This document shows positions 24,716 through 52,700 of a DNA stretch of 64,000 bases, in pieces. Position 1 is the stretch's first letter, and every line of letters starts with the position of its first letter. The translations under genes were made by a program, and so were the position numbers. The notes beneath the pieces were generated by a model. It was not told the origin of the DNA. It was given only the letters and a program-made list of their open reading frames with translations, and made no database searches. Source of the DNA: Bacilli bacterium (GTDB taxonomy: Bacteria; Bacillota_I; Bacilli_A; RF39; UBA660); assembly GCA_017612805.1 (NCBI GenBank), contig JAGAFD010000005.1:10130-74129 (forward strand). Direction: 5' to 3'.

Positions 24716-24720
24716 CTTAG

Positions 24721-25566: not shown

Positions 25567-25580
25567 GATTATCCCTCCTT

Positions 25581-25608: not shown

Positions 25609-25618
25609 TTTTAACATA

Positions 25619-31274: not shown

Positions 31275-31351
31275 GTCTCCGTAGCTCAGCTGGATAGAGC
31301 ATACGCCTTCTAAGCGTACGGTCGCGCGTTCGAATCGCGCCGGGGACACCA
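31275..31351 (+). tRNA. tRNA-Arg (anticodon TCT), CCA encoded
   Basis: Cloverleaf with acceptor GTCTCCG/CGGGGAC and a GC-rich T-arm (GTCGCGCGTTCGAATCGCGCC). The anticodon loop is CTTCTAA. Confidence 0.85.
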
Positions 31352-36421: not shown

Positions 36422-36423
36422 TA

Positions 36424-37858: not shown

Positions 37859-37873
37859 TTTTAATCACCTTCT

Positions 37874-38695: not shown

Positions 38696-39321
38696 TATCT
38701 AATCACCACTAATAATACCCCTAAAGCTACTGCTAAAATTGGTATTATTATATACATTACGCCCTTAAATTTAGGAACTTTAATATTTAATACAAATAAT
38801 AATGAACAAGCTAATGTTGCTACCATATAAACTACTTTAAAACTTGTTTCCGGAATATTAGTGTGTAATAAACCTAAAATTGGATAAATTATTGCTGTTG
38901 CGGTAACTGGAAGTCCATTATATGTTTTAATCGGAGTATCAGAATTAGTATTAATATTAAAATAAGCTAATCTTGAAACACCACACATAATGAATAATGC
39001 AAAAATAACAAAATCCCAAATAGCATTCATTCCAAGTGATAACATAATAACTACTGGTAATACTAAAAAGTTAAATGTATCAGCTAAAGAATCTATTTGA
39101 ATACCAAATTCTTTTTCTTGTTCGGTTCTTTTACAAGCTCTTGCTACTTTACCATCAAACATATCACAAATACCAGATAACATTAAGAAAATTAATGAAA
39201 ATCTAATATATGGAACATCTGAAAATGCAATTTTAGAGAATGCAAAATACATTGAAACACAAGCAAAGATAACTCCTAAATAAGTTACTAATACTGACTT
39301 ATGGACTTTTATTATAAACAT
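38695..39321 (-). CDS. pssA: CDP-diacylglycerol--serine O-phosphatidyltransferase (CDP-alcohol phosphatidyltransferase family)
   Basis: The motif is DMFDGKVARACKRTEQEKEFGIQIDSLAD. Confidence 0.7.
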   Translation of the reverse strand: MFIIKVHKSVLVTYLGVIFACVSMYFAFSKIAFSDVPYIRFSLIFLMLSGICDMFDGKVARACKRTEQEKEFGIQIDSLADTFNFLVLPVVIMLSLGMNAIWDFVIFALFIMCGVSRLAYFNINTNSDTPIKTYNGLPVTATAIIYPILGLLHTNIPETSFKVVYMVATLACSLLFVLNIKVPKFKGVMYIIIPILAVALGVLLVVIR

Positions 39322-39323
39322 AT

Positions 39324-40868
39324 CTAATTACTTCCTTTTCCTAATTCATATTTTTTTAAATAATCATCATCTAATATTTTATTATTATAGAATACTGATT
39401 TTTTCTTTAGCTCTTTATCAAGTTTTTTAACCCCATACTTTTCCGCCAAAGTCTTTTCTGAAGAGAATAAATTAACCCCTAAACCTAACTTATTTCCTTC
39501 AATACTTCCACCTATAGCATATACCAAAGTTGGATAAGTATCAAGTGCTGTTACAATTCTTTCATTATTTTTATATTCTTCTTTAATTTCTTTTGGATTT
39601 ATTAATACACTATATACATAACGATCATCATCTTTAGCACCACGTTTTCTAAAGAATTCATTTTGCATTGATAAATGATCTCCTATTACCATAATAGTTG
39701 TATCTTTATAGTAATCTTGTTCTTTAACATAATTAACAAAATCATAAATTAATCTTGAAGTTGTTGCATATGCATTTTCATATTGTTCATCATATTTTGT
39801 TTCTGAATAATTACCAACAAAGCCATCAACAAAGTGCGTATCAATCGTAATTAATTCTAAATTAAATGGTTCTTCATTATTAGAAATAACTTCCAATCTT
39901 TTCTTAGCTATATCAAATAAATAGTTATCATTAAATCCCCATTTACCTTTATCGCTTTCTTTCATTGAAAAACCATATTTATTTAAACTCTTAGAATCAA
40001 TAATGTCATAACTACCATGTTTTGTAAAATATTCTTTTAAACCCCCAAAAGAAGTTTTAGCAGCAGATATTACTTCATTATGGTAACCATTATCTTTTAA
40101 TAAATCACCTAAAGCATAAGACCCATTCATAAAGTTTTGTGAATGATATTGATTCTTATTAATACGAATCTTAAATGGAACCCCAGTAGAATTAGCAACA
40201 ACCGATGCTGTTGTCCAAGAAGCCCCTTCTAACATACTAGTTAATTCATGATTATCTTCATTATAAAATACTACTGCATCTGGATCTTCTAGTAATTGGT
40301 ATAAACCATCCGTTACTGGATAATCCCAATAACCACCTTGATCTTTTGTAAATAAAGTTGTTTCTAATGATTCAACCACAATTAGAATTAAATTTCTTTT
40401 CTTATCAAAAGTTATCTTTGTACTAGCTGGATCTACATAATGTTCTTCAATAAATGTTGATTTAAAATTCGTATAAACAATAAAGTTAAATAATCTAACA
40501 CTCCACATTAATGCCAAAATTCCTAAACCAAATAATAACCAAGTAATTAATTTGCGATGTTTAATTGTTCCCTTAATTGGATATAATACTTTACCTTTTT
40601 TAGTACTAATCTTTTTCTTACCATTAAAGATATCATAAAACAAAGTATAAAAAATAAACGCAAAAAATAATACAATTGGTCCACATATTTTAAGTCCATC
40701 CCAAAAAGCTGAACTATCAGCATCTTCAACACCAACTCTTAAATAGAAGATAACTTCTTCAAAATTAGTTGATGAGAAATTAATCTTTAAATATATTGCT
40801 GCAATTATTGCTGTAAGCGATAATATAATTGCAATAACATGTAATACTCTTAATATTTTACTTTTCAT
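39324..40868 (-). CDS. LTA-synthase/sulfatase-family membrane protein (alkaline phosphatase superfamily)
   Basis: N-terminal TM helices plus an extracellular sulfatase-like domain (VVESLETT..., MVIGDHLSM). Confidence 0.5.
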   Translation of the reverse strand: MKSKILRVLHVIAIILSLTAIIAAIYLKINFSSTNFEEVIFYLRVGVEDADSSAFWDGLKICGPIVLFFAFIFYTLFYDIFNGKKKISTKKGKVLYPIKGTIKHRKLITWLLFGLGILALMWSVRLFNFIVYTNFKSTFIEEHYVDPASTKITFDKKRNLILIVVESLETTLFTKDQGGYWDYPVTDGLYQLLEDPDAVVFYNEDNHELTSMLEGASWTTASVVANSTGVPFKIRINKNQYHSQNFMNGSYALGDLLKDNGYHNEVISAAKTSFGGLKEYFTKHGSYDIIDSKSLNKYGFSMKESDKGKWGFNDNYLFDIAKKRLEVISNNEEPFNLELITIDTHFVDGFVGNYSETKYDEQYENAYATTSRLIYDFVNYVKEQDYYKDTTIMVIGDHLSMQNEFFRKRGAKDDDRYVYSVLINPKEIKEEYKNNERIVTALDTYPTLVYAIGGSIEGNKLGLGVNLFSSEKTLAEKYGVKKLDKELKKKSVFYNNKILDDDYLKKYELGKGSN

Positions 40869-40938
40869 AATCTACACCACGCAACCTACAATATTATATC
40901 TTTTTATATATAAAATTGCAAATAGTTAGTGCTTTTAA

Positions 40939-41763
40939 CTATTTAACAATGAATAATTGTTTATCTTTTTCTAATTCTTTTAAACTTTTATTTGGTTTTG
41001 GTAAATCTTCTGGCATCGTGCCATTTAATTCTTTAATCGTTTCTCGAACCTTTTTCCCTACTTCATAATGGGTTTTAATAGCTTTAGCTTCCCCTTTAAT
41101 TTTATCATTTTTAAGTTTGGAATCTGTATGAGTAATTCTAAATAAATTATCAACTAATTCTTCACTTCCCATATTATCCAAAATATCTTCACGATATCTT
41201 AATCCTTTACGTCTTGCAATATCATCAGCTGTTTCACCATTATATAACCCTTTGTATCCAGCATTATGAAATTTATCAAAATTTTTAACACCTGCTTCTT
41301 TGGCAGTTTGATTTAAACTTTTATTATGCTTTTTAGTTAGATTTCTTTGATATATTCGTTTTTCATCTTCACTAAGTTCATTATACTCTTTTTCAAATAA
41401 TTCTTGTTTTCTTGTTTGAATAGCAAAATAAGTTTGGCCTAAGGCTACAACCGGTTTAGAAGAATCAGAATTTTGAACTATTAAATAACATGCATATCTG
41501 GTTAATCTATAATCATTTAATATTCTTTTAGCATTTGAACCTATTTTTACCATTACGTCCATTTGGGCGAAATGGTTTTCAATATTTAAAGCACTCTTTT
41601 CACAAGAGATAATAGCTTTTTTAATAGAAGGAAAAAATTTTCTATATTCACTATATTCTAATGTTTTCCCTAACTCTCTTGCTAACCAATATTCATTACC
41701 ACTTTCATCAATATGTTTAATATTTTCAAATATTTTGTCTGTATATTCTTTTATTTCATTCAT
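40939..41763 (-). CDS. dinD: DNA-damage-inducible protein D (DinD) homologue
   Basis: 274 aa. Close to E. coli DinD along its whole length: YWLARELGKTLEYSEYRKF..., VVALGQTYFAIQTRKQEL, GTMPEDLPKPNKSLKELE. Confidence 0.75.
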   Translation of the reverse strand: MNEIKEYTDKIFENIKHIDESGNEYWLARELGKTLEYSEYRKFFPSIKKAIISCEKSALNIENHFAQMDVMVKIGSNAKRILNDYRLTRYACYLIVQNSDSSKPVVALGQTYFAIQTRKQELFEKEYNELSEDEKRIYQRNLTKKHNKSLNQTAKEAGVKNFDKFHNAGYKGLYNGETADDIARRKGLRYREDILDNMGSEELVDNLFRITHTDSKLKNDKIKGEAKAIKTHYEVGKKVRETIKELNGTMPEDLPKPNKSLKELEKDKQLFIVK

Positions 41764-41924
41764 AAGTTCACCTCATAAATGGCATCATAAACAAAAATGA
41801 AATTTAATACAAATCATTAAAATTTAAAAATAATACTAATAAAATAAACAATACTTTAAATATTATTTATCAATAAAGATAAATTTGTAAAAATAAATAT
41901 TACTAAAATACCAATTTAATAACA

Positions 41925-41948
41925 AATAAAAAATAAGAAGAATTACTT
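41925..41948 (-). terminator. intrinsic terminator
   Basis: AAGAAGTAATTCTTCTT followed by U-run on the minus strand. Confidence 0.55.
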
Positions 41949-42221
41949 CTTATTTTCTTTATCTAAATTTTTAAATGGATGTTTAATACGAGTTTTAATA
42001 GCATTAACAATTATTGAAGAAGTAATATCATAAATACGATTAGCTTCTTCTTCATCTACATTAAGATTTTCCATTAAAGCAATAATTGTTTTACATTTAT
42101 TGCTTTTACCAAATAAGAAGTTATCTTCTAATGATTCACTAATAATAATTGCTTTATCATGTGGATAACCAGTTTGCTTTTCCACTTCTGCAATAAATCC
42201 TCTTTTATTCATTACTATCAC
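41943..42221 (-). CDS. hypothetical small protein
   Basis: 92 aa. Overlaps the upstream XRE-TM gene by 17 nt. Confidence 0.4.
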   Translation of the reverse strand: MIVMNKRGFIAEVEKQTGYPHDKAIIISESLEDNFLFGKSNKCKTIIALMENLNVDEEEANRIYDITSSIIVNAIKTRIKHPFKNLDKENKK

Positions 42222-43128
42222 CGTACATTTTACCTTTAGAATCTAGTTGAATTTCATAACCATATTCAAAGATATAAGAAATAACAAAGATAATTAAGAT
42301 TTCTACTAAGTTAAACATTTCTAGTGAAATATCTAAATCTTTATGTAAGATTATTTCAAATATTGAACCAGTTACATTAGGTAGAATAATTAATGCAATC
42401 ATTAAGTAAGCTATTTTTTTAATATGTTCAACATTTTCTAAAGTAAATGGTGTATCACCATTATGAATATTATTAAATAACTTTTCTACTCTTTTAAGCA
42501 TTAATATTAATAATACTAATGAAGCTATTAATACGATAGAAGCTGTTTCACAATATCCAATTAATAAACCTTTGTTATTAATGTTATCTTCAACTACATC
42601 TTTAATCATTGCTATTTTTTCTTTATCACTTTCAACAGCAATAATAGATTTTTTACGTTTAATAATTAACTCATTATTCTCTTCTACTACTTCAATAATT
42701 TTAGTATTATTAGAAATAATCTTACCATCCTTAATATCAATATTTTTAATTGCTATTGGAAGTAATACAGCAACTATTCCAATTAATACTGCTCCAACTA
42801 TTGATGCAATCCATCCAATTTTAGATAATACTGATATTATCTTAGATAATACCTTTACTTTCTTTTGTTTTTGTTTTTTAAACTTAACAACACTCATTTT
42901 AACTTCTTCATCTAATGAATTAATGTCTGACATATCTTCATGTACTAATTCATTAATTTGACATTTAAAAATAGTACATAAACACATAATATTAGTCATA
43001 CTAGGATAATTTTCACCAGTTTCCCATTTAGATACTGATTGTCTAGATACTCCTAACTTATCTGCTAATTCCTCCTGAGATATTTTTCTCATCTTTCTCA
43101 CTCTTTTAAGATTGTCTCCAAATTTCAT
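42205..43128 (-). CDS. XRE-family HTH regulator fused to membrane-spanning C-terminal region
   Basis: An N-terminal HTH, ISQEELADKLGVSRQSVSKWETGEN, followed by several TM helices. Confidence 0.6.
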   Translation of the reverse strand: MKFGDNLKRVRKMRKISQEELADKLGVSRQSVSKWETGENYPSMTNIMCLCTIFKCQINELVHEDMSDINSLDEEVKMSVVKFKKQKQKKVKVLSKIISVLSKIGWIASIVGAVLIGIVAVLLPIAIKNIDIKDGKIISNNTKIIEVVEENNELIIKRKKSIIAVESDKEKIAMIKDVVEDNINNKGLLIGYCETASIVLIASLVLLILMLKRVEKLFNNIHNGDTPFTLENVEHIKKIAYLMIALIILPNVTGSIFEIILHKDLDISLEMFNLVEILIIFVISYIFEYGYEIQLDSKGKMYGDSNE

Positions 43129-43191
43129 TAGACTTCTCTCCTTTCATGCCCTAAGTTTAATAAAAACCAACAATTATTACTATCAACTTTT

Positions 43192-43224
43192 AAGTGCATT
43201 TTATAAATTTAATAAATTGCACTT
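43192..43224. promoter_or_regulatory. inverted repeat, candidate operator upstream of XRE-TM gene
   Basis: AAGTGCATTT-N13-AAATTGCACTT. The arms AAGTGCA / TGCACTT pair. Confidence 0.4.
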
Positions 43225-43312
43225 ATATCTTTACATAAATATTGCTTTTTTATCAAATACACTAAATAATCTAAAAATATATATTAATCATTTAAAAATG
43301 ATAACATTACAC

Positions 43313-44347
43313 TTAAAAATCTATAACATGATTATATAATTGATATTTTTTATTTGAATAATCTATTTTATTATCTAAAGCCAATCTATATAATACGAAA
43401 CACTTAGGATATTTTTCCTCATTATCAATGTTATAACAATCATTATTAACAATACTCATATAATATTCGTCAGATACCATCCAATTTAATGATTGTTTAT
43501 CAGCTTTATCTTCAAATTTTTCGTTTTCAAAAGATATTAAATTTGTGGCTTTAGCCATATTAAAATCACTCTTACAATGTGCCAATTCATGTAATAAAGC
43601 AAAATATATATCTGCAATTCTCTTATACTTTCGGGTTAAATAAATAGCAGGAGTTTCCTTATTGACTTTAAATGCGCCTCGAATCTTAGATCCTGGTAAA
43701 TCATCTTGAATTACGAGTTGAATTCCATTTTTATTAAACTTTTCAATTAATTTTTTTTCATCAAACAAATCATTCTTAGCATTATCTTTTATAAATTCCA
43801 CTAAAGAATCTATATTACTTTTATCATATTGGCCAAGAACCTGATTACTTGCAATTCTATAACATCTCTCTAGCCATATCATAAGCATTTCTGGTTTATC
43901 ATTCTTACTTTTATATAATATATTTTTATCTAATTTATACAAACTATCAGGTGCTGAAACCCTTAAATATTTAAGAATATCCATTAATGATGTCATTTTA
44001 TTATCTACATGAACAAATTTTATCCAATTACTTTTTAATAGCTCTCTATATGAAAATTTATTTAAATATTGAGTAAGCGTTATCTCATTCTTATTCAAGA
44101 AATTTATAATTTCACATTCCATTCTATAATTTTCTTCTATTTTTAAAATATACTCAGCTGGGATATCAGTAACGATGGAAATAGATTGAATTATTGAAGA
44201 AGATAATTCAATGTTACCTGATAATAAATCAATTAAATGCTTAGGGGAAATGCCGATTCTTGCAGCAAATTCCTTATTAGATATATTGTGCTCATTTAAA
44301 TAATCTTTCAAAATATCAACAAAACGCACATGTGCCATTTCTATCAC
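43313..44347 (-). CDS. HTH (XRE) + ImmA/IrrE-family (COG2856) zinc metallopeptidase fusion, HigA-like antitoxin
   Basis: An N-terminal HTH, NKEFAARIGISPKHLIDLLSGN, and an HEXXH at FALLHELAHC. The start is either GTG at 44347 or ATG at 44338. Confidence 0.65.
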   Translation of the reverse strand: MIEMAHVRFVDILKDYLNEHNISNKEFAARIGISPKHLIDLLSGNIELSSSIIQSISIVTDIPAEYILKIEENYRMECEIINFLNKNEITLTQYLNKFSYRELLKSNWIKFVHVDNKMTSLMDILKYLRVSAPDSLYKLDKNILYKSKNDKPEMLMIWLERCYRIASNQVLGQYDKSNIDSLVEFIKDNAKNDLFDEKKLIEKFNKNGIQLVIQDDLPGSKIRGAFKVNKETPAIYLTRKYKRIADIYFALLHELAHCKSDFNMAKATNLISFENEKFEDKADKQSLNWMVSDEYYMSIVNNDCYNIDNEEKYPKCFVLYRLALDNKIDYSNKKYQLYNHVIDF

Positions 44348-44358
44348 CCTTAATCTTT

Positions 44359-44691
44359 TTAAATATTTCTTAAATATCTTTTAAAATCTTCATAATGTTC
44401 ATCAGAAATATATTCGAGTCTAATAGAATAATTATCAGGGCAAGAAAACAAAAGCCTTAATTTTCCACTTTTACTATTCTTATCAATAGAAAATCTATAA
44501 TAACCTGTCAAATCACCTTTCAATTCCTCAAAACCATATTGATCAGATATTACATGGTTTTTTAAATCTTTAAAATCATGTACAACCTCCATATGACTTA
44601 ACACTTTATTTAGTTTATCCATAGCATCATAATTTTTCTTGATTTTTTTTAAGCTATTTTTATACCCAGTTGTAAGTTCAGAAATAATCAT
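44359..44691 (-). CDS. HigB-like (RelE/ParE superfamily) toxin
   Basis: 110 aa. ELKGDLTGYYRFSIDKNSKSGKLRLLF parallels HigB HPLKGDREGYWSITVRANWRITFQF. It sits 11 nt upstream of the HTH-peptidase gene. Confidence 0.55.
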   Translation of the reverse strand: MIISELTTGYKNSLKKIKKNYDAMDKLNKVLSHMEVVHDFKDLKNHVISDQYGFEELKGDLTGYYRFSIDKNSKSGKLRLLFSCPDNYSIRLEYISDEHYEDFKRYLRNI

Positions 44692-44931
44692 GAAAAATAA
44701 AAACTCCTTTCCTCTTCTTTACTCTTTCATATCTATCCTATCATTCCTCTACGTATACGTATATATATTAACATTAAGGTTAATATATGTCAATAATTAA
44801 ATGATTAAAAAACTAATCTAACATTATTATTTTTTATCTTCAATTTTTAAACGCAAATAGTAATTATCGTGTTCATGATAACATAATTGAATTAATTATT
44901 AATTCATATAAAAAAGCAGGATTTCTCCTAC

Positions 44932-46806
44932 CTATATTTTTGATTTGAAATATTTTTGTAATTCAAGATCTGTACAATAAACATAACAACCTTTCAGACC
45001 TCTAGTCATTAATGTTCTATATGTATTTTTTATTATAGAGTCTGCTATTCTATTTGCTTCTTCTTGTCCCTTTTCTAAAGCTATTTTATTTATGCCTTTT
45101 AATGATTGATCTGTTTTTGCTCTTTTTGTATAATCTGTAACTATTTGACCATTTTCATACCTCATATCATCGCCAATAATAACACCAACATAATCAAACT
45201 CTAATCCTTGGCATGTATGAATACATCCAGCTTCATTAACAGACTCTGGATCAATAGCATATGTTTGAGAATTAGCTAAGTTCCAACTCATTTCAAAATT
45301 ATATTCAGGTATTACAATATCATGAACAGTAGTCTTAGCTTTACCTTCACTAATCCAGTCCCAACAGTAACCTGCAACTATTCTAGATTTATTATTTATT
45401 GTATTTTTTTCTTCAATAGTTCTTCTCATTTCATTTGGATCATCAAAAACTTTAAAATCATAATCAAATCCATCGATATCAAAATTTGCAGTTTCTCTTA
45501 TTTCTAATAGATTATCTAACCAGGCGATGTAGCCATCTGAACCATTGCATCTAAATTGACTGTCTAATTCATAAATATAAATACCAGCATCTAATTCTCT
45601 TGCATATTGCTTTATTAAATCTTCACTACCAATATCTTTTAGTGTTACTTTTTGATTTTCATCTATAAAGAATATTGAAAATTTAGAAGCATTAATTATT
45701 TCTTTAATTTGGTTTTCACCTTTATTTTGAAATAATCCAGATTTAGCATTTAATCGATGTGCCTCATCCACTACTAATACATCCAATTTATTACTTTCTT
45801 CATTAACAAAATTACCAGACCCTTGAAATAAATGATTAATATAAGTTTGAGTAAAATCTCCTCTTAATTTAGCTGCAAATACATTTCTAGGTGCAGCATT
45901 TTTTGTTACATAAAAGCATGTCATATTTCTATTATTAAACTCAACTAATAAATTAATGGCCAATACTGACTTACCAGTTCCTGGTCCACCTCTAACAATC
46001 ATTACATTTTTCTTGTTATTAGCAACAGTATCAATTGCATTACTTATTGCATATTCATAAATAACTTTTTGATCATCAATCATATAAAATTCTTTATTAC
46101 CATGTAACATTTGTGATAAAGAATCTTGAAGCATCTTTGATGGTCTAATTCTTCCATGATCAATTTCATATAGAATACTTCCATCATCACCACTTGATAT
46201 ATATTTTTTAATAAAGTCTCTTAATTTAATAACATCATTATGTCCAAATAAAGGAGCCTTATCAGTATATTCTTTATAATTATCAGATAATAATGTATCA
46301 TCATTTTCAAAATAATAATTATGCAAATAAGCACAAGGTATAACATTAATGTCTTTTAGTTGAACAGATTCATTATAATCTTTAATTAAGTTAGCATAAG
46401 TCATGGCTTGGTATGAAGGATGGTTTACATCTCTAAGTCCTCCACCCACAAATGTATTAACCTTATAAATACCATCTAGGTAAGCAACTTCAGTAGCTTT
46501 ATCCCATTGCTTTAGCTCAATTATAATTACATTAGATTTGTCATTGTTAAATCCAGACATCATAAAATCTATTCTACATCCAGTTGGTGGAATATTATAT
46601 TCAATAGCTATACCAGTATTATCCGGTATTTCATTATCACTTAATACACCTCTCATATATTGCATAGAATTCTTCCAAGAATTAAATTCGGGTGAACTTG
46701 GTCTTCTTTTAATCTTTTCAATATATTTATTTCTTATCTTATCAGCTATTATTCCTAAATCTACATCATTAATAAATCCTGATTTTATCCCTTCATATAC
46801 TAACAT
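44932..46806 (-). CDS. DUF2075-type protein with an N-terminal PD-(D/E)xK nuclease-like domain and an SF1-helicase-like ATPase
   Basis: The N-terminus reads ...RIDFMM...VIIIELKQWD (D...ExK). Walker A is RGGPGTGKS and Walker B is DVLVVDEAHRL. The helicase motif is CQGLEFDYVGVI. Confidence 0.65.
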   Translation of the reverse strand: MLVYEGIKSGFINDVDLGIIADKIRNKYIEKIKRRPSSPEFNSWKNSMQYMRGVLSDNEIPDNTGIAIEYNIPPTGCRIDFMMSGFNNDKSNVIIIELKQWDKATEVAYLDGIYKVNTFVGGGLRDVNHPSYQAMTYANLIKDYNESVQLKDINVIPCAYLHNYYFENDDTLLSDNYKEYTDKAPLFGHNDVIKLRDFIKKYISSGDDGSILYEIDHGRIRPSKMLQDSLSQMLHGNKEFYMIDDQKVIYEYAISNAIDTVANNKKNVMIVRGGPGTGKSVLAINLLVEFNNRNMTCFYVTKNAAPRNVFAAKLRGDFTQTYINHLFQGSGNFVNEESNKLDVLVVDEAHRLNAKSGLFQNKGENQIKEIINASKFSIFFIDENQKVTLKDIGSEDLIKQYARELDAGIYIYELDSQFRCNGSDGYIAWLDNLLEIRETANFDIDGFDYDFKVFDDPNEMRRTIEEKNTINNKSRIVAGYCWDWISEGKAKTTVHDIVIPEYNFEMSWNLANSQTYAIDPESVNEAGCIHTCQGLEFDYVGVIIGDDMRYENGQIVTDYTKRAKTDQSLKGINKIALEKGQEEANRIADSIIKNTYRTLMTRGLKGCYVYCTDLELQKYFKSKI

Positions 46807-46816
46807 ACTAACCTCA

Positions 46817-47698
46817 TTACATATTACTTAATTCATTAGCAATAGATTTTCTTCTTTTTTCTCGTTCTAGATTTGCTAATTTTTGAATAAGTATTTCCTC
46901 TAAAGCACATTTTAATATTGGAAATATTTCTTGACATTCTTCTTCTGATAAATTATGTATTCCATCACTCACCCTAGCATAAATTATATTAAACCCATTC
47001 TCAAATAATAAGGATGGTAAATATTTTTTTAATTTTTTTACTCGATCTTCGATACGATAATGCAAAAATTCATCTTCAGAAAAATCTAAATTATCTTTAT
47101 TGTCATTGAAACAATCTATTAATAATTTTTCAAATATTCTTCTTAAATATATTAAAGCGCCAATACATGTATTAAAACTATATAATGAACATGCTTTCTT
47201 ATAATATCCAGCATATTCATTCCCTAATTCCTTTATAAAAGGCTTATTGTTTATTTCTTCATTTAAATCATAAATAGATGGATATTGTCCTATTTTCAAT
47301 ATCCTATCATTTGATAAAACTTTAAAATCAACAATTAAAGAATGCCCACAATCACCACAACCTATTATCCTAAAATAATCTTTACCTCTCAATTCATCAG
47401 CTGCTGATGCTTGTTTTCCTTGAATACTCATACTTATCCATGCATAAGAAGAATTATGTAATGTGAATATTCTTCTTTGTTTACATAAATTACAATAACA
47501 TTCAATTTTTAAATTGTTATACGGAAAAAACTTATAATTTGCAACCTTCGTATTAACAGACATTGGCTTATATAATGGATATAATAACATTTTTTCATTA
47601 ATAAATGAATTTGTCATGTCATTAGCGGTTATATTATTTCTATTGTGGAAATCTAATTCTTGTATTGTTATCATTTCAATATTATTATCTCTATTCAT
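46817..47698 (-). CDS. Zn-ribbon (CxC-x2-C...C-x2-C) protein with DUF4145-like helical C-terminal domain
   Basis: Cysteine cluster CYCNLC...CGDCGH. The alpha-helical C-terminus resembles DUF4145. GAGGTG RBS. Confidence 0.45.
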   Translation of the reverse strand: MNRDNNIEMITIQELDFHNRNNITANDMTNSFINEKMLLYPLYKPMSVNTKVANYKFFPYNNLKIECYCNLCKQRRIFTLHNSSYAWISMSIQGKQASAADELRGKDYFRIIGCGDCGHSLIVDFKVLSNDRILKIGQYPSIYDLNEEINNKPFIKELGNEYAGYYKKACSLYSFNTCIGALIYLRRIFEKLLIDCFNDNKDNLDFSEDEFLHYRIEDRVKKLKKYLPSLLFENGFNIIYARVSDGIHNLSEEECQEIFPILKCALEEILIQKLANLEREKRRKSIANELSNM

Positions 47699-47710
47699 AA
47701 AACACCTCGA

Positions 47711-48025
47711 TTATAATTTTGTATATTTTGTACTTTTTCCTTTTGATTTTTCAACAGGATATTTTTTTGCTGTCTTTTCCATTTTATCTAAAACTATTTG
47801 TTTCGGATCTACTCCTAATTTATCCGCCATCAATATGCAATAATTTATTACATCAGCAAGTTCTTCTTTAACTTCATCTAAATCATATTCATTATTCCAT
47901 TGAAAACATTCTAATAATTCACCTGCTTCAATGCAAATACTCTTTGCTAAATTTTCAGGTGAATGAAATTGATCCCAATCACGTTCTTTAGTAAATTCGA
48001 CAACCTTTTCCCTTAATTCTTGCAT
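47711..48025 (-). CDS. MazG-like all-alpha NTP pyrophosphohydrolase
   Basis: 104 aa with EAGELLE and ELADVINYCILMADKLGVD motifs. AGGTGG RBS. Confidence 0.65.
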   Translation of the reverse strand: MQELREKVVEFTKERDWDQFHSPENLAKSICIEAGELLECFQWNNEYDLDEVKEELADVINYCILMADKLGVDPKQIVLDKMEKTAKKYPVEKSKGKSTKYTKL

Positions 48026-48043
48026 TATAAACCACCTAATTCA

Positions 48044-48052
48044 ATTATACCA
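48044..48052 (-). promoter_or_regulatory. extended -10 promoter (TGgTATAAT) for the 3-gene operon
   Basis: The minus strand reads cttaTGgTATAATtgaattAGGTGGtttataATG. Confidence 0.5.
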
Positions 48053-48067
48053 TAAGAAATATTAGAA

Positions 48068-48095
48068 AAATAAAAAACGTTCATATTATGAACGT
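48068..48095 (-). terminator. intrinsic terminator after the Mrr-cat gene
   Basis: AACGTTCATAATATGAACGTT followed by UUUUUAUUUUU on the minus strand. Confidence 0.6.
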
Positions 48096-48476
48096 TTATT
48101 TCATTACTTCAATATATTCTTCAATTTTTTCATTATCAATAATAGTTATATTTAATCTAGCTGCTGCTTCTTTAGCATTAACACTAACTTCATCATTACT
48201 AATGATAATACCAAAACCAACTTTTTCTCTTTCCATATCTTGTACAGTTTCTTCTATTTCGCGCATTGTTATTTTTTTATTTAAATAAGTTTGAACTGTA
48301 TACATAACATTATCTTTTTTAGCTAACATATCATTATCATTAGTAGGGTCATCATCAGATAATCTAGCATCATCTAACGTTACTGGAAAATAACCATGTT
48401 TTAATAATACTGCTTGAATATAATTTCTAAATTCCCTACTATCTATAAAGTTATCAATAATCCCTATATCTTCCAT
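48096..48476 (-). CDS. stand-alone Mrr-cat-like restriction endonuclease domain protein
   Basis: 126 aa. DNDMLAKKDNVMYTVQT...GFGIIISNDEVSVNAKEAAARLNITIIDNEKIEEY matches the Mrr catalytic-domain pattern. Confidence 0.55.
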   Translation of the reverse strand: MEDIGIIDNFIDSREFRNYIQAVLLKHGYFPVTLDDARLSDDDPTNDNDMLAKKDNVMYTVQTYLNKKITMREIEETVQDMEREKVGFGIIISNDEVSVNAKEAAARLNITIIDNEKIEEYIEVMK

Positions 48477-48534
48477 ATCTTAATCACCTATAATGATTAT
48501 AGCATAATTCGTTATTATTCAATGTTTATATGAT

Positions 48535-49281
48535 TTATTTTTTTGTATATTTACACTTTGGATAATTAGAACATCCAATAAATTTTCCATACTTACTTTT
48601 TCTTTCAACTAATTGTCCACCACATTTTGGGCATTTATTAGGATCTTTATCTATTACATTTTTTCTAATATTTCTAATATGTTCCTTTTTTATCTTTTTA
48701 TCAATGATATTATTTCTATTAATTATATTAACAATTAAACTTACATCATCAATAATAACATCTTTGTATGATAATATTTTATCAACAATAGTATCGTATC
48801 TTACTAACTCTCCATCATGTTGAATCTTTAAAGTTGCTTTACTAGGAATACATACAATATTATATATTTTTGATTCATCAACATTTAATAATTCTGATAG
48901 TGCTTTTACGTGACCATAGTTCTGTCTAATTGGATTAGAATAATAATACTTATTCTTTCCAACATGTCTTATCCAATATTTATCATATTTATTACCAGTA
49001 ATAAAACCATTATATTGTTTAGTTTCTACAGAAAATATACCATATGGTGAAACTATCACATGATCTATTTGATGAGTATTACCATTCGTTTTTATAAATA
49101 CATCATTTATAACTATATATTTATCTTTTGGTAATTTTTTTAGCGCTTGTTTTGTCCAAAGCTCACCAAACCAGCCAATTATTTTTTTAGAATAAATAAC
49201 TAATAATATATCGATTATAATAAATAAGATAACAAATGGATTAGTTAAAAAAGTAATTATTACTTTAATAAAATCAGCCAT
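48535..49281 (-). CDS. NERD-domain nuclease-related protein with C-terminal topoisomerase-type C4 zinc finger
   Basis: An N-terminal TM, a NERD core (GELWTKQALKKL...HQIDHVIVSPYGIFSVETKQYNG), and a C-terminus CPKCGGQLVERKSKYGKFIGCSNYPKC. Confidence 0.6.
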   Translation of the reverse strand: MADFIKVIITFLTNPFVILFIIIDILLVIYSKKIIGWFGELWTKQALKKLPKDKYIVINDVFIKTNGNTHQIDHVIVSPYGIFSVETKQYNGFITGNKYDKYWIRHVGKNKYYYSNPIRQNYGHVKALSELLNVDESKIYNIVCIPSKATLKIQHDGELVRYDTIVDKILSYKDVIIDDVSLIVNIINRNNIIDKKIKKEHIRNIRKNVIDKDPNKCPKCGGQLVERKSKYGKFIGCSNYPKCKYTKK

Positions 49282-49289
49282 ATAATTTC

Positions 49290-49712
49290 CTACTCTCTAC
49301 CATCAACTAACAATATTGTTATATTAACACATACTATTAAACCTTTTAAAATAAAGTATGGAATAAGTATTAAGAATTTATTATTTTCAAATAAATATCT
49401 AAATGTCATTATATGTAATACTAAATAACCAGTTCCGGTCATTGTCATACCTAATACAATAAAACCTTTAGCAGCAAAATTATAATATAAAATACTAGCT
49501 ATTAAACTTAAAAAATCTGGAGTCATAAATGTAAAGCAAAGGGAACATAACATTAAATTAATTGGTAAATAAGCAAATGTTATCGCACTAGTTGCGCTAA
49601 ATAATTTTAATGAAATAAATACTATATATAATATTGCTGCTATACAATAAATAATGTTAATAATATTTAATATTAAACTAACTTTACCTAAAGTAGTTTT
49701 TTTCTTACGCAT
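49290..49712 (-). CDS. small polytopic membrane protein
   Basis: 140 aa, four hydrophobic helices. Lies 8 nt upstream of the NERD gene. Confidence 0.4.
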   Translation of the reverse strand: MRKKKTTLGKVSLILNIINIIYCIAAILYIVFISLKLFSATSAITFAYLPINLMLCSLCFTFMTPDFLSLIASILYYNFAAKGFIVLGMTMTGTGYLVLHIMTFRYLFENNKFLILIPYFILKGLIVCVNITILLVDGRE

Positions 49713-49801
49713 CCTAAATCACCTAAATCAATTATATCATAAAAATTATTATTGTATTTTCAAATATTTTTGTTATCATATATACTTAAGGAAGTGAAGA
49801 A

Positions 49802-50464
49802 ATGGAAAAAGCAGGAATTATTACTGATATGATAATAAGAGGAAATGCCTCTGCATTAAATGCACTAAAAATTTTAAATGCTTATGAACGTTTTGATAAA
49901 ATAATTAAAACTTTTTATCGTGGACTTGGTTTTATTATCACTTATGATTATAGTGATGCCAAAGCGGATTATTACGGACAATATACGCATGATTTAAAAA
50001 TTTATTTTGATCATGTATTAGTATTTGATAGTAAAACTAATACTTATATTCCAGGGCCATGGGAAGAATTACTTAGTAAAATGGTAGAAAACAAAAAAAT
50101 AACTAATAAAAAAGGTAAAGAATATGAAACATCTTACGAACGCGCTTTAAAAATTGATACGGAAATTGAAAAGATTATTGCTAATGATAAATCTGAAGAA
50201 TGTTATGTAAGACTTAATAAAGATATTACCGTTTATAAAAATCCTAAAAGCGAAAATCCGTATGTAGTTTCAGCACATAACGATTTTGTATACATCTGTA
50301 ATAAGTATCATGAAATCCAACAAATTAAAGAAAGTGGATGGGAAGAAGTAGTTTTAAAATACATGGCTGGCGTTGAAGCTGAAAAATTAGATGAATTACA
50401 TAAAAGACAAAAAACATTAGTTCATGATTATATGGATGCATTTAAAGGAAAGGAAAAGAAATAA
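49802..50464 (+). CDS. hypothetical protein, paralogue A (two internal repeats of a GPWE-containing module)
   Basis: 220 aa. The repeats are ...IYFDHVLVFDSKTNTYIPGPWEELL... and ...FVYICNKYHEIQQIKESGWEEVV... AAGGAAG RBS. Confidence 0.55.
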   Translation: MEKAGIITDMIIRGNASALNALKILNAYERFDKIIKTFYRGLGFIITYDYSDAKADYYGQYTHDLKIYFDHVLVFDSKTNTYIPGPWEELLSKMVENKKITNKKGKEYETSYERALKIDTEIEKIIANDKSEECYVRLNKDITVYKNPKSENPYVVSAHNDFVYICNKYHEIQQIKESGWEEVVLKYMAGVEAEKLDELHKRQKTLVHDYMDAFKGKEKK

Positions 50465-51156
50465 TGTTTAAAAAGAAGAATAAACTTAGTAAGGAAACCA
50501 TTGCTTTTCTTGAACAAAATATACCAGCAGTAGAAGATGCCATTAAAATCTTAAAAGAAGTTGGTATTGAAAGTGAAAGAGATCCAAGAGTTAGGAATAA
50601 TAAAGAGATTCAATATAATGGTTCTGGTTTTAATATCCATATTTATGGTGGAAAAGATACTATCGATGCAAAAGACCCGCTATATTTAACTATTAGTTTT
50701 GAACATGTAGTAGTATATAATGCATGGTACCTAAAATATGTTGAAGGCCCTTGGGAAACATTAATTAAAGAGTTAGCAAAGCGTCCTACAATAGCGCAAA
50801 ACCTTCAAGATAAATATAACGAAAATAAAGCGCGTGCCGAAATTATTGATTATGAAATAAGAGATATTATGCAATATCTCACACTTTCTCGTATTAAATC
50901 ACTTGAATTAAAAGACTATAATATGATAATTTATTATAACTACAATTGTGATGATAAAAGATACGTAATAGAGTATCAAGGCGAAGATGTATATGTAGCT
51001 AATAGCTATCATGAAATTCAAACTCTAACTGAAGGCCCTTGGGAAGCCATTTTAATGAATTATAGAAAAAATGAAGAAGCTAAAGCTTATGCCGAAAAGC
51101 ATAAAGTTCAACTAGAACAAGTTGATAAATACATGCAAATATTAAAAAATAGCTGA
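50464..51156 (+). CDS. hypothetical protein, paralogue B (two internal repeats of a GPWE-containing module)
   Basis: 230 aa. The repeats are ...ISFEHVVVYNAWYLKYVEGPWETLI... and ...VYVANSYHEIQTLTEGPWEAIL... Its start overlaps the stop of paralogue A (TAATG). Confidence 0.55.
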   Translation: MFKKKNKLSKETIAFLEQNIPAVEDAIKILKEVGIESERDPRVRNNKEIQYNGSGFNIHIYGGKDTIDAKDPLYLTISFEHVVVYNAWYLKYVEGPWETLIKELAKRPTIAQNLQDKYNENKARAEIIDYEIRDIMQYLTLSRIKSLELKDYNMIIYYNYNCDDKRYVIEYQGEDVYVANSYHEIQTLTEGPWEAILMNYRKNEEAKAYAEKHKVQLEQVDKYMQILKNS

Positions 51157-51169
51157 GATTATATCTTAG

Positions 51170-51880
51170 CTATTTTTTTATGTAATCATTAATTATTTTT
51201 ATTAATTCTTTTGTATGAGTAGTTGCAATATCATGACCGCCATTATTAATTAAATAGATCCGATTTTTTATTTTTTTAGAAACAATTGATAACATTCTCG
51301 ATGGATCTACCATATTATCTTGATTACCATATATAATGATAAAATCGTTAGGTTTAATCGCTTCTAACTTACTAGCTAACTCCACCCTAACAATATCTTG
51401 ATAAGTATTTCTTAAAAACTTAGTTCCATAAACCATTTCAGGAGTTTTAACTTTATAAATTAAATATAAATCTCTTAAATAATTTCTAATTGGTTTAATA
51501 AAATTTGGGGTTTTAATAAATGCTTTGGAAGCTTTTTGATTTCTTATTAAAGCTGGTGATACTAAAATCAATTTAACATTACCATATTTCTTATAATAAG
51601 TAACAGCAACCGCTCCCCCAAAAGAATAACCTAAAATATAATCAGGATGAAAATCATTATCTTTTATGTAATCATAAATAAAATTAGCATAATCATCCAA
51701 AGAATATTTTTTTACATTAGGTTCTTTTGTTAAACCAAAACCTGGTAAATCCGGAGTTTTAACAATATAATCTTTAGCCAAAGCATCAACAAATGCTTGA
51801 CGGTTATACCAAGCATTTGTATCAATCCTGCCATAGTAATTATTATAATTCCAACCATGAATTAATAATATTTTTTTCAT
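51170..51880 (-). CDS. alpha/beta-fold hydrolase
   Basis: Nucleophile elbow GYSFGG. I moved the start to MKKILLIHGW because an AAGGAATGA RBS precedes it. Confidence 0.6.
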   Translation of the reverse strand: MKKILLIHGWNYNNYYGRIDTNAWYNRQAFVDALAKDYIVKTPDLPGFGLTKEPNVKKYSLDDYANFIYDYIKDNDFHPDYILGYSFGGAVAVTYYKKYGNVKLILVSPALIRNQKASKAFIKTPNFIKPIRNYLRDLYLIYKVKTPEMVYGTKFLRNTYQDIVRVELASKLEAIKPNDFIIIYGNQDNMVDPSRMLSIVSKKIKNRIYLINNGGHDIATTHTKELIKIINDYIKK

Positions 51881-51915: not shown

Positions 51916-52677
51916 TTATTTTTTATCAGTTAATTTTTTAGTTTGACCTTTATAGATATCACGCGATTTTTTTAAAATATCTTGAAGTTCTTCCGGATAA
52001 ATACTATTTACTTTATTAATTAATTCTTCATCTATTTCAATATCTAATAATCTTATTCCTTTTTCTTCTTTTAAGAATATCGCATCTTCAATGTAGATAA
52101 CATTTGCATACGAAGAAAGGGCATTATCAAACCTAACGCTATTGGCATAACCATTAATAATATTACGATAAATAACGCCTTTAAATTCTCTTAAATCATC
52201 AAAGCTTTGGAATATTGCATGTTTAGCAAAAAAAGCATTAGCAATAATCACAATATCACTTATATGTGGAGCTTTCTTTTCATCTTTAACTTGTTTATCA
52301 TCCCACACTAAGATATTATTAACTGCAAATTCACGGTGACCTTTTTTATCAAGATCATAAGCTTCTAAAATCCATTCTTCATGAGCATGCCATTCAGATT
52401 TTTTATATTCTAATTTAATTGGAATAATATTTCTTTTAGCAGTAATTCCTTCCCAATTTTTATAAGTAATCGTAACTACTTTTTTACGCATATTAGCTAG
52501 TTTTTTAGCATCCTCATCACTTAATAGCATATTTTGTACTAAACCACTTTCGGATGTCGTTGCCACATGATAATATAGCGTTTCATCTGAATCATCAAAT
52601 TCTTTAAAACAAAATGAACCTAAATCGTCGCCTCTTTGTTCTCCAGAAATTACATTTAATCTTTTAATCTCACCCAT
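51916..52677 (-). CDS. hypothetical protein
   Basis: 253-aa ORF. Confidence 0.45.
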   Translation of the reverse strand: MGEIKRLNVISGEQRGDDLGSFCFKEFDDSDETLYYHVATTSESGLVQNMLLSDEDAKKLANMRKKVVTITYKNWEGITAKRNIIPIKLEYKKSEWHAHEEWILEAYDLDKKGHREFAVNNILVWDDKQVKDEKKAPHISDIVIIANAFFAKHAIFQSFDDLREFKGVIYRNIINGYANSVRFDNALSSYANVIYIEDAIFLKEEKGIRLLDIEIDEELINKVNSIYPEELQDILKKSRDIYKGQTKKLTDKK

Positions 52678-52700
52678 TTATAAAACCTCCCCAAAAACGC

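What the first reader, a model, noticed from the sequence alone, without database searches (positions are those of the whole stretch)
40939..49712. About 9-kb defence/mobile-type island without integrase
The stretch runs from dinD through the XRE-TM regulator, HigB/HTH-peptidase and the nuclease-helicase operon to the Mrr-cat/NERD module. Every gene has a defence, toxin-antitoxin or phage-regulator flavour. The intergenic regions are unusually long and AT-rich (180-240 nt). The block sits between core lipid-biosynthesis genes and a further accessory block. I found no recombinase, transposase or flanking direct repeats, so it may be an old, decayed insertion or a defence-island hotspot.
Basis: inference. 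Interest (0 to 1): 0.55.

Follow-up and report, generated by a model that had tools for sequence, protein, structure and literature searches.

The report
Defence gene cluster with swappable cassette
This 9-kb stretch is a cluster of anti-phage-type genes with no mobility genes of its own; at its centre is a widely shared gene pair (a MazG-like nucleotide hydrolase and an Nhi-like nuclease-helicase) between which different genomes carry different defence genes, swapped exactly at the gene borders.

Summary
Window 40939-49712 carries, all on the minus strand, DinD; a 92-aa ORF with an XRE-DUF2975 membrane regulator; a RelE/HigB-fold protein with an Xre-peptidase; MazG-like, a 293-aa unknown protein and a PD-(D/E)XK-DUF2075 nuclease-helicase; then a membrane protein, NERD and Mrr_cat. 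There is no recombinase, no att-like repeat and no adjacent tRNA. GC and GC3 match the rest of the window; tetranucleotide usage deviates weakly.

Whole-island borders could not be tested. Every contig that shares the flanks is 100% identical clonal DNA, and the nearest other genomes are too distant.

The 3.1-kb central operon is the notable part. Its MazG-like gene (70-92% aa) and helicase (84-91% aa) recur in other low-GC Bacilli contigs, with homology confined to the module where it was tested. RecG is only 60% identical in one such genome. The gap between the MazG stop and the helicase ATG is 10 nt when empty. Elsewhere it holds an HNH_2, an HNH, a Ymh/HEPN, a UG13b reverse transcriptase or a 129-aa gene. 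Here it holds a Pfam-less zinc-ribbon protein with a HEPN-like fold.

The MazG-like/DUF2075 pairing also occurs at about 50% identity in an archaeal plasmid, a Bacteroidota plasmid and a cyanophage record. I found no paper describing it.

Verdict: an ordinary defence cluster that contains a new variant of Nhi-like systems.

The parts
40939..41763 (-). DinD (Bro-N plus DinD C-terminal region), its own transcription unit
   Evidence: NCBIfam NF008573 3.1e-106, 355 bits against a cut-off of 242. PADLOC PDC-S13 3.9e-101. Bro-N 9.9e-8.
41943..42221 (-). 92-aa ORF of unknown function; overlaps the stop of the XRE-TM gene by 17 nt
   Evidence: ORF list. Called as a gene in the ENA record. No family hit.
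42205..43128 (-). XRE-family HTH fused to a DUF2975 membrane domain
   Evidence: HTH_3 7.9e-15, DUF2975 7.6e-7.
43313..44347 (-). Xre HTH plus ImmA/IrrE-like HExxH metallopeptidase (PD-lambda-2 B-like)
   Evidence: PADLOC PD-Lambda-2_B 3.1e-23 over residues 10-297. HTH_3 3.5e-7. HELAH motif in the translation.
44359..44691 (-). 110-aa RelE/YafQ/HigB-fold toxin-like protein, 11 nt upstream of the Xre-peptidase gene
44914..44933 (-). Terminator-like hairpin at the helicase stop codon; 3' end of the shared module
   Evidence: DNA homology to L079 ends at 44944.
44932..46806 (-). Nhi-like nuclease-helicase: N-terminal PD-(D/E)XK domain plus DUF2075/SLFN-g3 SF1 helicase
   Evidence: PF09848 6.5e-108. 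PADLOC AbiO 1e-16 and Nhi 1.3e-15. D80, E97, K99, GPGTGKS and DEAH invariant in 20 homologues. More than 8000 homologues; the top 120 clusters are 82-91% identical.
46817..47698 (-). Cargo gene in the slot: 293-aa protein with a zinc ribbon (CxxC...CxH) and a C-terminal HEPN-like helical domain; family not in Pfam
47711..48025 (-). MazG-like all-alpha NTP pyrophosphohydrolase, first gene of the module
   Evidence: PF12643 9.8e-22. 70-92% identical copies directly upstream of the helicase, or of the cargo gene, in L079, L081, L084 and related loci. 32-49% identical copies upstream of DUF2075 genes in Halalkalicoccus, Marivirga and the Microcystis phage record.
48026..48077 (-). Upstream leader/promoter region that travels with the module
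   Evidence: blastn homology to L079, L081 and L084 begins at window 48077, 48054 and 48058.
48075..48097 (-). Terminator-like hairpin closing the TM/NERD/Mrr_cat unit
48096..48476 (-). Small Mrr_cat (restriction-endonuclease-fold) protein, 126 aa
   Evidence: PF04471 1.4e-10; weak hit to the inactive-REase family NA-iREase1, 0.0023.
48535..49281 (-). NERD nuclease-related domain plus a C4 Topo-I-type zinc ribbon
   Evidence: PF08378 2.6e-30, PF01396 1.8e-16.
49290..49712 (-). 140-aa multi-pass membrane protein, first gene of the NERD/Mrr_cat unit (8-nt gap to NERD)
   Evidence: ORF list. No family hit.

Best explanation
The stretch is a composite defence-gene cluster, probably built up from independent modules. 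It is not one mobile element.

Five transcription units lie side by side:
1. DinD.
2. XRE-DUF2975 with the 92-aa ORF.
3. A RelE/HigB-fold protein with an Xre-peptidase. This resembles PD-lambda-2 A and B but lacks component C.
4. MazG-like, a cargo gene and an Nhi-like nuclease-helicase.
5. A membrane protein, NERD and Mrr_cat.

Unit 4 is a 3.1-kb module that is transferred horizontally. Its conserved core is the pair of a MazG-like NTP pyrophosphohydrolase and a PD-(D/E)XK-DUF2075 helicase. The 10-nt gap between the two genes serves as an insertion slot. Unrelated defence-type genes occupy it in different genomes, presumably exchanged by recombination in the highly conserved flanking genes.

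Inferred mechanism:
- The helicase-nuclease senses and degrades phage DNA, as shown for Nhi. It may act preferentially on modified DNA, as suggested for Nhi-like.
- The MazG-like enzyme hydrolyses non-canonical or modified dNTPs. That would either starve the phage or keep modified bases out of host DNA.
- The cargo here, a zinc-ribbon/HEPN-like protein, is an additional RNase-type effector. It is probably autonomous and rides on the operon's expression.

Shown: gene identities, the exact breakpoints, the diversity of cargo, and the conservation of the pairing. Inferred: all biochemical activities and any anti-phage function.
For: Module identities.

Operon limits: terminator-like hairpins at 48097-48075 and 44933-44914.

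DNA homology to L079, L081 and L084 covers only two segments. One runs from about 48077 to 47712, or to 47669 in L084 (leader plus MazG). The other is 46806/46810 to about 44940 (helicase). In L082 only the helicase matches. There is nothing else in the 12 kb compared, apart from a 70% match between the cargo gene and a paralogue elsewhere in L079.

Junction table: the slot is 10 nt in L092-97, 394 nt (129-aa gene), 652 nt (HNH), 702 nt (Ymh), 807 nt (HNH_2), 904 nt (window) and 1312 nt (RT). The RT cargo is DRT class UG13b, 5e-114, and the HNH cargos resemble type II HNH enzymes.

Identity contrast: helicase 84% and MazG 70% identical in L081, against 60% for the core protein RecG in the same genome.

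In other genomes the module lies next to integrases.

Homologues of the 293-aa cargo occur without the MazG/helicase pair. Some stand alone, some follow Fic, and some precede a DUF1016/YhcG nuclease.

The pairing is old: MazG-like lies directly upstream of 48-52% identical DUF2075 genes in an archaeal plasmid, a Bacteroidota plasmid and a cyanophage record.

Literature: Nhi degrades phage replication intermediates (10.1101/776245). Phages escape Nhi-like by losing a phage DNA methylase (10.1101/2022.08.27.505566).

One Logan contig of the same clone ends 54 nt into the helicase, just inside the stretch conserved between variants.
Against: No experiment supports any of this, and no expression data exist.

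Only eight close contexts were sampled.

The MazG-like gene is absent next to the helicase in L082 and on the Methanosphaera plasmid. The pair is therefore not obligatory.

Tight spacing or overlap of the cargo with the helicase start (a 10-nt gap here, a 7-nt overlap in L084 and L087) would also fit a true three-component system.

The HEPN-like domain lacks a family-wide Rx4-6H motif; only S244 and H248 are invariant in that helix. RNase activity is therefore uncertain.

Accretion of the whole cluster is inferred from the mobility of one module only.
Confidence: 0.7

Rival explanations
1. The operon is an obligate three-component system. The conserved Nhi-like helicase-nuclease, together with MazG-like, is the sensor or first line of defence. 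The variable middle gene is its exchangeable effector or a guarded second-line toxin. It would be held inactive by the helicase and released when a phage inhibits that enzyme, by analogy with the HEPN anticodon nuclease PrrC embedded in the EcoprrI type I R-M operon.
For: The cargo is always placed for translational coupling: a 2-12 nt gap after the MazG stop, and a gap of 0-10 nt to the helicase ATG or a 7-nt overlap with it. Most cargos with a recognisable domain are predicted nucleases of the toxic-effector type: HNH, HNH_2, Ymh/HEPN and a HEPN-like fold. The PrrC precedent and Ymh/DUF4145 genes embedded in R-M operons are described in PMC3710099. In L084, homology extends about 30 nt into the start of the cargo gene.
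Against: The empty two-gene form exists in close relatives (L092-97) and in distant relatives (Halalkalicoccus, Microcystis phage record), so the core does not need a middle gene. Homologues of the 293-aa family occur alone or with unrelated partners. UG13b reverse transcriptases are a recognised stand-alone DRT class.
Confidence: 0.25
2. The whole 9 kb (or the roughly 15 kb up to recG) is a single old integrative element that has lost its integrase and att sites.
For: The block sits between a lipid operon conserved in L003 and recG. In L081 an integrase-bearing defence island also lies just downstream of recG. Tetranucleotide usage deviates mildly, rank 4 of 56. Two contigs of the same clone break at 51180 and 51205.
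Against: No integrase remnant, no direct repeats, no adjacent tRNA, and GC and GC3 equal to the flanks. Homology to other genomes stops at the borders of the 3.1-kb module, not at island borders.
Confidence: 0.15
3. The genes are ordinary, vertically inherited chromosomal genes (SOS-linked DinD, a repair helicase, regulators), and the defence reading is an annotation artefact.
For: The same order is present in every contig carrying the flanking proteins. Composition is host-like. None of the genes belongs to an experimentally validated system by a full-length HMM match.
Against: Those contigs are 100% identical clones. The helicase and MazG genes are far more conserved across genomes than RecG, and they sit in different neighbourhoods rich in R-M, DarT, Fic, ToxN, Thoeris-TIR and type IV enzymes.
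Confidence: 0.05

Closest known systems
Nhi (S. epidermidis SERP2475; Bari et al., 10.1101/776245) and Nhi-like (Millman et al., 10.1101/2022.05.11.491447)
   Same: N-terminal PD-(D/E)XK nuclease plus a DUF2075 SF1-type helicase in one polypeptide of about 600 aa. Located among other defence genes. The PADLOC Nhi and AbiO models match the helicase part (1e-15 to 1e-16).
   Different: Nhi and Nhi-like are described as single-gene systems. Here the gene is the last of an operon that starts with a MazG-like hydrolase and has a variable middle gene. There is no detectable similarity to the Nhi model in the N-terminal 237 residues. This lineage is unusually conserved: 82-91% identity across many 90%-identity clusters.
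PD-lambda-2 (Vassallo et al., PMC9519451)
   Same: An upstream RelE/HigB-type small protein followed by an Xre-HTH fused to a metallopeptidase. The B component matches the PADLOC model at 3.1e-23.
   Different: The third component, related to a P4 antitoxin and required for defence in E. coli, is absent. The A-like protein matches only by fold, not by HMM.
PrrC in the EcoprrI type Ic R-M operon, and Ymh/DUF4145 HEPN genes embedded in R-M operons (Anantharaman et al., PMC3710099)
   Same: A HEPN-type gene is embedded between genes of a DNA-targeting restriction-type system. This offers a functional analogy for the cargo slot.
   Different: The host operon here is MazG-like plus Nhi-like, not hsdMSR. 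The cargo is highly diverse (RT, HNH, HEPN types, unknowns) and can be absent. No regulatory interaction is known.
Defence islands and defence hotspots in mobile elements
   Same: Conserved flanks with variable defence cargo. Many unrelated systems are clustered together.
   Different: Here the conserved flanks are themselves two defence-type genes of one operon, and the cargo is a single ORF inserted for translational coupling. No phage or satellite backbone is present.
DRT class UG13b reverse transcriptases (PADLOC RT_UG13b)
   Same: The slot cargo in L087-L091 is a full-length UG13b RT (5e-114).
   Different: It is not present in this window. It matters only as evidence that slot cargos are recognised defence-type genes.

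Membership tests
Nhi / Nhi-like nuclease-helicase | N-terminal PD-(D/E)XK nuclease motif | tested here: met
   D80 ... E97-L98-K99 (RIDF ... IIELKQW) is invariant in 20 homologues. Pfam has no model hit for residues 1-240.
Nhi / Nhi-like nuclease-helicase | DUF2075 (PF09848) helicase domain with Walker A and B | tested here: met
   PF09848 6.5e-108 over residues 266-613. GPGTGKS and VVDEAH are invariant.
Nhi / Nhi-like nuclease-helicase | Match to the family's own HMM over the full length | tested here: inconclusive
   PADLOC Nhi PDLC02372 scores 1.3e-15 but covers only residues 238-561. AbiO scores 1e-16 over a similar range.
Nhi / Nhi-like nuclease-helicase | Acts as a stand-alone single gene | tested here: not met
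   In 7 of 8 close contexts the gene is preceded in the same operon by MazG-like, with or without a cargo gene.
Nhi / Nhi-like nuclease-helicase | Anti-phage activity dependent on the nuclease and helicase | not testable with these tools
   Needs phage challenge of wild type and of D80A, K99A and K279A mutants.
PD-lambda-2 | Component B: Xre HTH plus C-terminal peptidase | tested here: met
   PDLC03982 3.1e-23, HTH_3 3.5e-7, HELAH motif.
PD-lambda-2 | Component A: HigB-like protein encoded directly upstream | tested here: inconclusive
   [not shown]
PD-lambda-2 | Component C: P4-antitoxin-related protein required for defence | tested here: not met
   No PD-Lambda-2_C hit among the ten island proteins. 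The next gene lies 184 nt away and is XRE-DUF2975.
Integrative genomic island | Integrase or recombinase gene, or a remnant of one | tested here: not met
   No Pfam hit. tblastn with five integrase genes (six called ORFs) from related loci gives only E > 0.4.
Integrative genomic island | Flanking direct repeats or a tRNA target | tested here: not met
   Only chance-level AT-rich repeats were found. The nearest tRNA is at 31275-31351.
Integrative genomic island | Composition different from the host | tested here: inconclusive
   GC 0.249 against 0.257 +/- 0.013; GC3 within range. Tetranucleotide L1 distance 0.161 against 0.118 +/- 0.024, rank 4 of 56. Candidate donors have the same GC.
Integrative genomic island | Absent from close relatives, with a clean empty site | tested here: inconclusive
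   All contigs sharing the flanks are 100% identical. L003 ends 1.1 kb beyond the sulfatase-family gene and carries an unrelated gene there. L040 and L041 lack synteny.
HEPN superfamily (293-aa cargo protein) | Four-helix up-down HEPN fold | tested here: met
   [not shown]
HEPN superfamily (293-aa cargo protein) | Conserved Rx4-6H catalytic motif | tested here: not met
   This protein has R242-x5-H248. Position 242 is K in close homologues and is not conserved in the wider family. Only S244, G246 and H248 are conserved there; R186 and E190 are invariant in another helix.
HEPN superfamily (293-aa cargo protein) | Match to a HEPN-clan Pfam model (for example DUF4145) | tested here: not met
   None of 33 diverse members hits any HEPN model at E <= 0.01. 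A profile search against PDB sequences found nothing.
MazG-like NTP pyrophosphohydrolase (PF12643) | Match to the family model above the gathering score | tested here: met
   77.5 bits against a cut-off of 27. EAGELLE and EELADV acidic motifs are visible in the translation.
Mrr-type restriction endonuclease | Mrr_cat domain | tested here: met
   PF04471 1.4e-10 over residues 11-120.
Mrr-type restriction endonuclease | Intact catalytic D...(Q/E)xK and an N-terminal DNA-recognition domain | not tested
   The protein is only 126 aa, so it has no recognition domain. By eye the expected QxK position reads Q-T-Y. There is a weak hit to an inactive-REase family (0.0023). No residue-level alignment was made.

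The most novel reading that the evidence does not exclude
The MazG-like/Nhi-like pair may be a conserved defence 'chassis' found in both bacteria and archaea. In gut low-GC Bacilli its intergenic 10 nt may have become a dedicated, translationally coupled slot. Toxic effectors (HEPN-like, Ymh, HNH, UG13b RT) would be exchanged there by recombination in the near-identical flanking genes and would be functionally guarded by the helicase-nuclease. That would be a PrrC-style second line of defence, generalised to a modular, swappable format. The MazG-like enzyme would sanitise modified dNTPs for a modification-dependent nuclease.
Probability: 0.2. Interest if true: 0.8.

Novelty: new variant of a known kind. 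Interest (0 to 1): 0.55.

Why it matters
Taken as a 9-kb 'island', the finding is routine. Clusters of defence genes without their own mobility genes are common.

The central operon is what adds something:
- Nhi-like enzymes, so far treated as single-gene systems, here belong to a conserved pair with a MazG-like nucleotide hydrolase, a pairing also seen in archaea, Bacteroidota and a cyanophage record.
- That pair contains a precisely delimited slot whose content differs between genomes while the flanks stay 82-92% identical. It is a compact natural example of cassette exchange inside a defence operon.
- The slot could be used to mine for new defence genes. The 293-aa zinc-ribbon/HEPN-like family (about 2250 cluster representatives, not in Pfam), the 129-aa cargo and the 468-aa gene in the corresponding position in L082 are immediate candidates.
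- The link between an NTP hydrolase and a nuclease reported to be triggered by phage DNA methylation suggests a testable role for nucleotide-pool sanitation in modification-dependent restriction. A parallel NUDIX plus type IV enzyme pair lies next door in several loci.

Tried and rejected
- Island borders by comparison. One scan of genome contigs and one of metagenome contigs with the flanking sulfatase-family protein gave relatives of at most 67% identity. Only L003 (the same contig as L043) conserved the lipid operon, and it ends 1.1 kb beyond the gene.
- Exact-protein look-ups with the sulfatase-family protein, RecG and the alpha/beta-hydrolase returned only contigs 100% identical to the window. 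They say nothing about variation between strains.
- att-like repeats: none above chance. Tandem repeats: trivial.
- Integrase remnants: none.
- RNA elements: no Rfam match at E <= 1 in 40800-51300. The whole window has only a T-box and a tRNA-Arg.
- Viral origin of the helicase: two IMG/VR scans, with a single protein and with an alignment, found nothing. GenBank phages gave one 52% hit (Microcystis phage Mwe-JY31) and three distant fragments.
- Sequence-level links of the 293-aa and 110-aa proteins to solved structures: none. Only fold comparison was informative.
- Assigning the 293-aa family to DUF4145 or another HEPN Pfam family: rejected. No member hits such a model and the Rx4-6H motif is not conserved.
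- Foldseek against afdb50 was not available.
- Literature: no paper in the library contains both DUF2075 and MazG, and no relevant paper contains both Nhi and MazG.
- GC or GC3 as an island signal: rejected as uninformative. The flanks and the putative donors all have 24-27% GC.

Full report
**Source and setting.** The window is about 26% GC and carries a T-box leader. It matches metagenome scaffolds, and NCBI MAG proteins labelled 'Bacilli bacterium', at 100% identity. The nearest species representative is a 'Bacilli bacterium' MAG (L003). It shares only 47-71% aa identity in the four-gene lipid operon of sulfatase-family protein, pssA, psd and a flippase-like protein, at 36833-40868. To the right, recG (55734-57704) and cell-envelope glycosyltransferase genes are ordinary chromosomal genes.

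**Checking the observation.** All genes between 40939 and 49712 are on the minus strand.
- DinD is confirmed above NCBI's curated cut-off (355 against 242 bits). It also matches the PADLOC candidate PDC-S13.
- 42205-43128 is an HTH_3 plus DUF2975 membrane protein. A 92-aa ORF overlaps its end.
- 43313-44347 is an Xre-HTH plus HExxH peptidase that matches PD-Lambda-2_B at 3.1e-23.
- 44932-46806 is a DUF2075/SLFN-g3 helicase (6.5e-108). It has an N-terminal D80...E97-x-K99 nuclease motif and Walker A and B motifs, all invariant in homologues.
- 48096-48476 is a 126-aa Mrr_cat protein, and 48535-49281 is NERD plus a Topo-I zinc ribbon. A 140-aa membrane protein heads that unit.

The long spacers are real (179, 184 and 240 nt; window median 46 nt). 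Only the first is unusually AT-rich. Terminator-like hairpins follow Mrr_cat and the helicase. Together with the spacers they define five transcription units.

**Is it an island?** There is no recombinase by Pfam and none by tblastn with integrases taken from related loci. There are no att-like repeats and no nearby tRNA. GC (0.249 against 0.257 +/- 0.013 for 9-kb windows) and GC3 are ordinary. Tetranucleotide usage deviates weakly, at rank 4 of 56 windows. Loci that share modules with this one are also 24-26% GC, so composition cannot decide the question.

Comparison with relatives failed as a test. Every contig found through identical flanking proteins is 100% identical DNA. More distant relatives either end too soon (L003) or lack synteny (L040, L041). 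The borders of the whole block therefore remain undetermined. PADLOC finds only weak hits further right: a WYL protein and a mad2-like methyltransferase.

**The central operon.** Homologues of the helicase are very numerous and unusually conserved. An alignment of 20 of them has 89% mean column identity.

I examined eight independent neighbourhoods. In seven of them a 104-aa MazG-like gene (70-92% identical) heads the operon. What lies between the two conserved genes differs:

| Locus | Slot content | Slot length (nt) |
|---|---|---|
| L092-97 | empty | 10 |
| L084-86 | 129-aa coiled-coil protein | 394 |
| L102 | HNH, 213 aa | 652 |
| L081 | Hypoth_Ymh, a HEPN family (PMC3710099) | 702 |
| L079 | HNH_2, 262 aa | 807 |
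| window | 293-aa protein | 904 |
| L087-91 | reverse transcriptase, DRT class UG13b (5e-114) | 1312 |

L082 is the exception: a 468-aa unknown gene precedes the helicase and no MazG-like gene is present. Domain calls for the cargos come, and slot lengths.

blastn shows that nucleotide homology to the window runs from about 50 nt upstream of the MazG-like gene to its stop codon (48077-47712). It resumes at the helicase start codon and runs to within 12 nt of the helicase stop (46806/46810 to about 44940). There is no homology in the surrounding 12 kb, apart from a 70% match between the cargo gene and a paralogue elsewhere in L079. Each cargo supplies a ribosome-binding site for the helicase, and some overlap its ATG by 7 nt.

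In L081 the helicase is 84% identical to the window's, but RecG is only 60% identical. The module is therefore younger than the genomes that carry it, which indicates horizontal transfer. In L081, L084 and L092-97 an integrase lies close by. A NUDIX gene paired with a PLD-DEAD-DUF3427 type IV methyl-directed enzyme (4.6e-122) is a recurrent neighbour.

**Depth of the pairing.** Full-length helicase homologues at 48-57% identity occur on plasmids of Methanosphaera, Halalkalicoccus, Halomonas, Marivirga and Hymenobacter, and in the record Microcystis phage Mwe-JY31. I inspected four of these. In three (Halalkalicoccus, Marivirga and the phage record) a MazG-like gene lies directly upstream with no middle gene. 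The Methanosphaera plasmid has none. The two-gene form therefore looks ancestral, and the filled slot looks like a derived feature of the low-GC Bacilli lineage.

**The cargo in this window.** The 293-aa protein belongs to a family of 357 close homologues and 2254 cluster representatives at E <= 1e-3. None of 33 diverse members hits any Pfam model. A CxxC...CxH zinc ribbon, Y-L-R-R-I-F-E and S-x-G-x-H are conserved.

Its homologues lie in other defence neighbourhoods without the MazG/helicase pair. Some stand alone between a DUF2726 helicase and a type I R-M system, near Thoeris-TIR and ToxN. One follows Fic, near DarT. Others precede a DUF1016/YhcG nuclease and an Mrr_cat protein. This argues that the cargo can work on its own.

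**Mechanism (inferred).** Nhi prevents phage DNA accumulation through its nuclease and helicase activities (10.1101/776245). For Nhi-like, phage escapers had lost a DNA methylase, which suggests that methylated phage DNA is the target (10.1101/2022.08.27.505566).

A MazG-like all-alpha NTP pyrophosphohydrolase next to such an enzyme, and a NUDIX hydrolase next to the neighbouring methyl-directed type IV enzyme, suggest nucleotide-pool sanitation. This would either deprive the phage of modified dNTPs or stop modified nucleotides released by DNA degradation from entering host DNA.

The cargo is most simply an additional effector that shares the operon's promoter. The alternative is that it is a toxin guarded by the helicase, like PrrC in EcoprrI (PMC3710099). 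This is attractive but is weakened by the empty forms and the stand-alone homologues.

The remaining units have no established mechanism here. The HigB-fold/Xre-peptidase pair resembles PD-lambda-2 A and B but lacks the C component required for defence in E. coli (PMC9519451).

**Novelty.** The cluster as such is ordinary. The MazG-like/DUF2075 pairing and the cassette slot were not found in the searchable literature. The Nhi papers do not list MazG among the neighbours, and Nhi-like is described as a standalone protein. I class the finding as a new variant of a known kind.

**Limits.** Eight close and four distant contexts is a small sample. All functions are predictions.

Noticed in passing
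window 49802-51156 (+ strand): Two adjacent paralogous genes (220 and 230 aa) with no hit in Pfam, NCBIfam or PADLOC. They contain a repeated 16-nt element, TGAAGGCCCTTGGGAA. They are the only plus-strand genes in this part of the window. Two contigs of the same clone from other samples end at 51180 and 51205, at the convergent junction with the alpha/beta-hydrolase gene. This hints at a branch in the assembly graph, and so at possible variation, at that point.
   Followed up: partly
window 51916-53372: A 253-aa WYL-domain protein (PF13280 1.6e-5; PADLOC WYL 1.9e-6) followed by a 223-aa SAM methyltransferase with a weak mad2-like hit (9.2e-7).
   Followed up: partly
window about 16000-27000: A second compositional outlier. 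GC falls to 0.185-0.22 at 20-24 kb, and the tetranucleotide distance of 9-kb windows starting at 16-18 kb (0.163-0.170) is as high as or higher than for the island. It contains a block of plus-strand genes (18902-22194). I did not annotate it.
   Followed up: no
L084, L087, L092-97, L102 (related loci): A NUDIX gene paired with a PLDc_2-DEAD-DUF3427 protein (PADLOC type IV methyl-directed restriction enzyme, 4.6e-122) lies directly next to the MazG/Nhi-like module in several genomes, on either side. This is a second 'NTP hydrolase plus modification-dependent nuclease-helicase' pair.
   Followed up: partly
L101 (PP438423.1, Microcystis phage Mwe-JY31, 22 kb): This phage record carries the MazG-like/DUF2075 pair (49% and 52% aa identity to the window's proteins), annotated only as hypothetical proteins. 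Either a phage carries this defence-type pair, or the record is not purely phage.
   Followed up: no
L100 (Marivirga sp. plasmid p1, locus 4001-7736): Two tandem DUF2075 copies downstream of one MazG-like gene. The first is broken into four tblastn pieces, so it is probably a pseudogene.
   Followed up: no
[not shown]
   Followed up: partly
window 46753 (end of Logan contig L038) and 41247 (start of L002), both from run SRR12529219: In one sample the clone's assembly breaks 54 nt into the helicase gene and again inside dinD. The first break lies just inside the stretch conserved between cargo variants, as expected if co-resident genomes share the helicase sequence.
   Followed up: partly
window 48096-48476: The 126-aa Mrr_cat protein has no DNA-recognition domain. 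By eye, the expected QxK catalytic position reads Q-T-Y. It also hits an 'inactive restriction endonuclease' family weakly (0.0023). It may be a non-catalytic partner of the NERD protein.
   Followed up: no
window 36215-36744: A small HTH (68 aa) plus DUF6442 membrane protein pair lies between the lipid operon and a 789-aa surface protein. The architecture (XRE regulator plus small membrane protein) is similar to the fused XRE-DUF2975 gene in the island.
   Followed up: no
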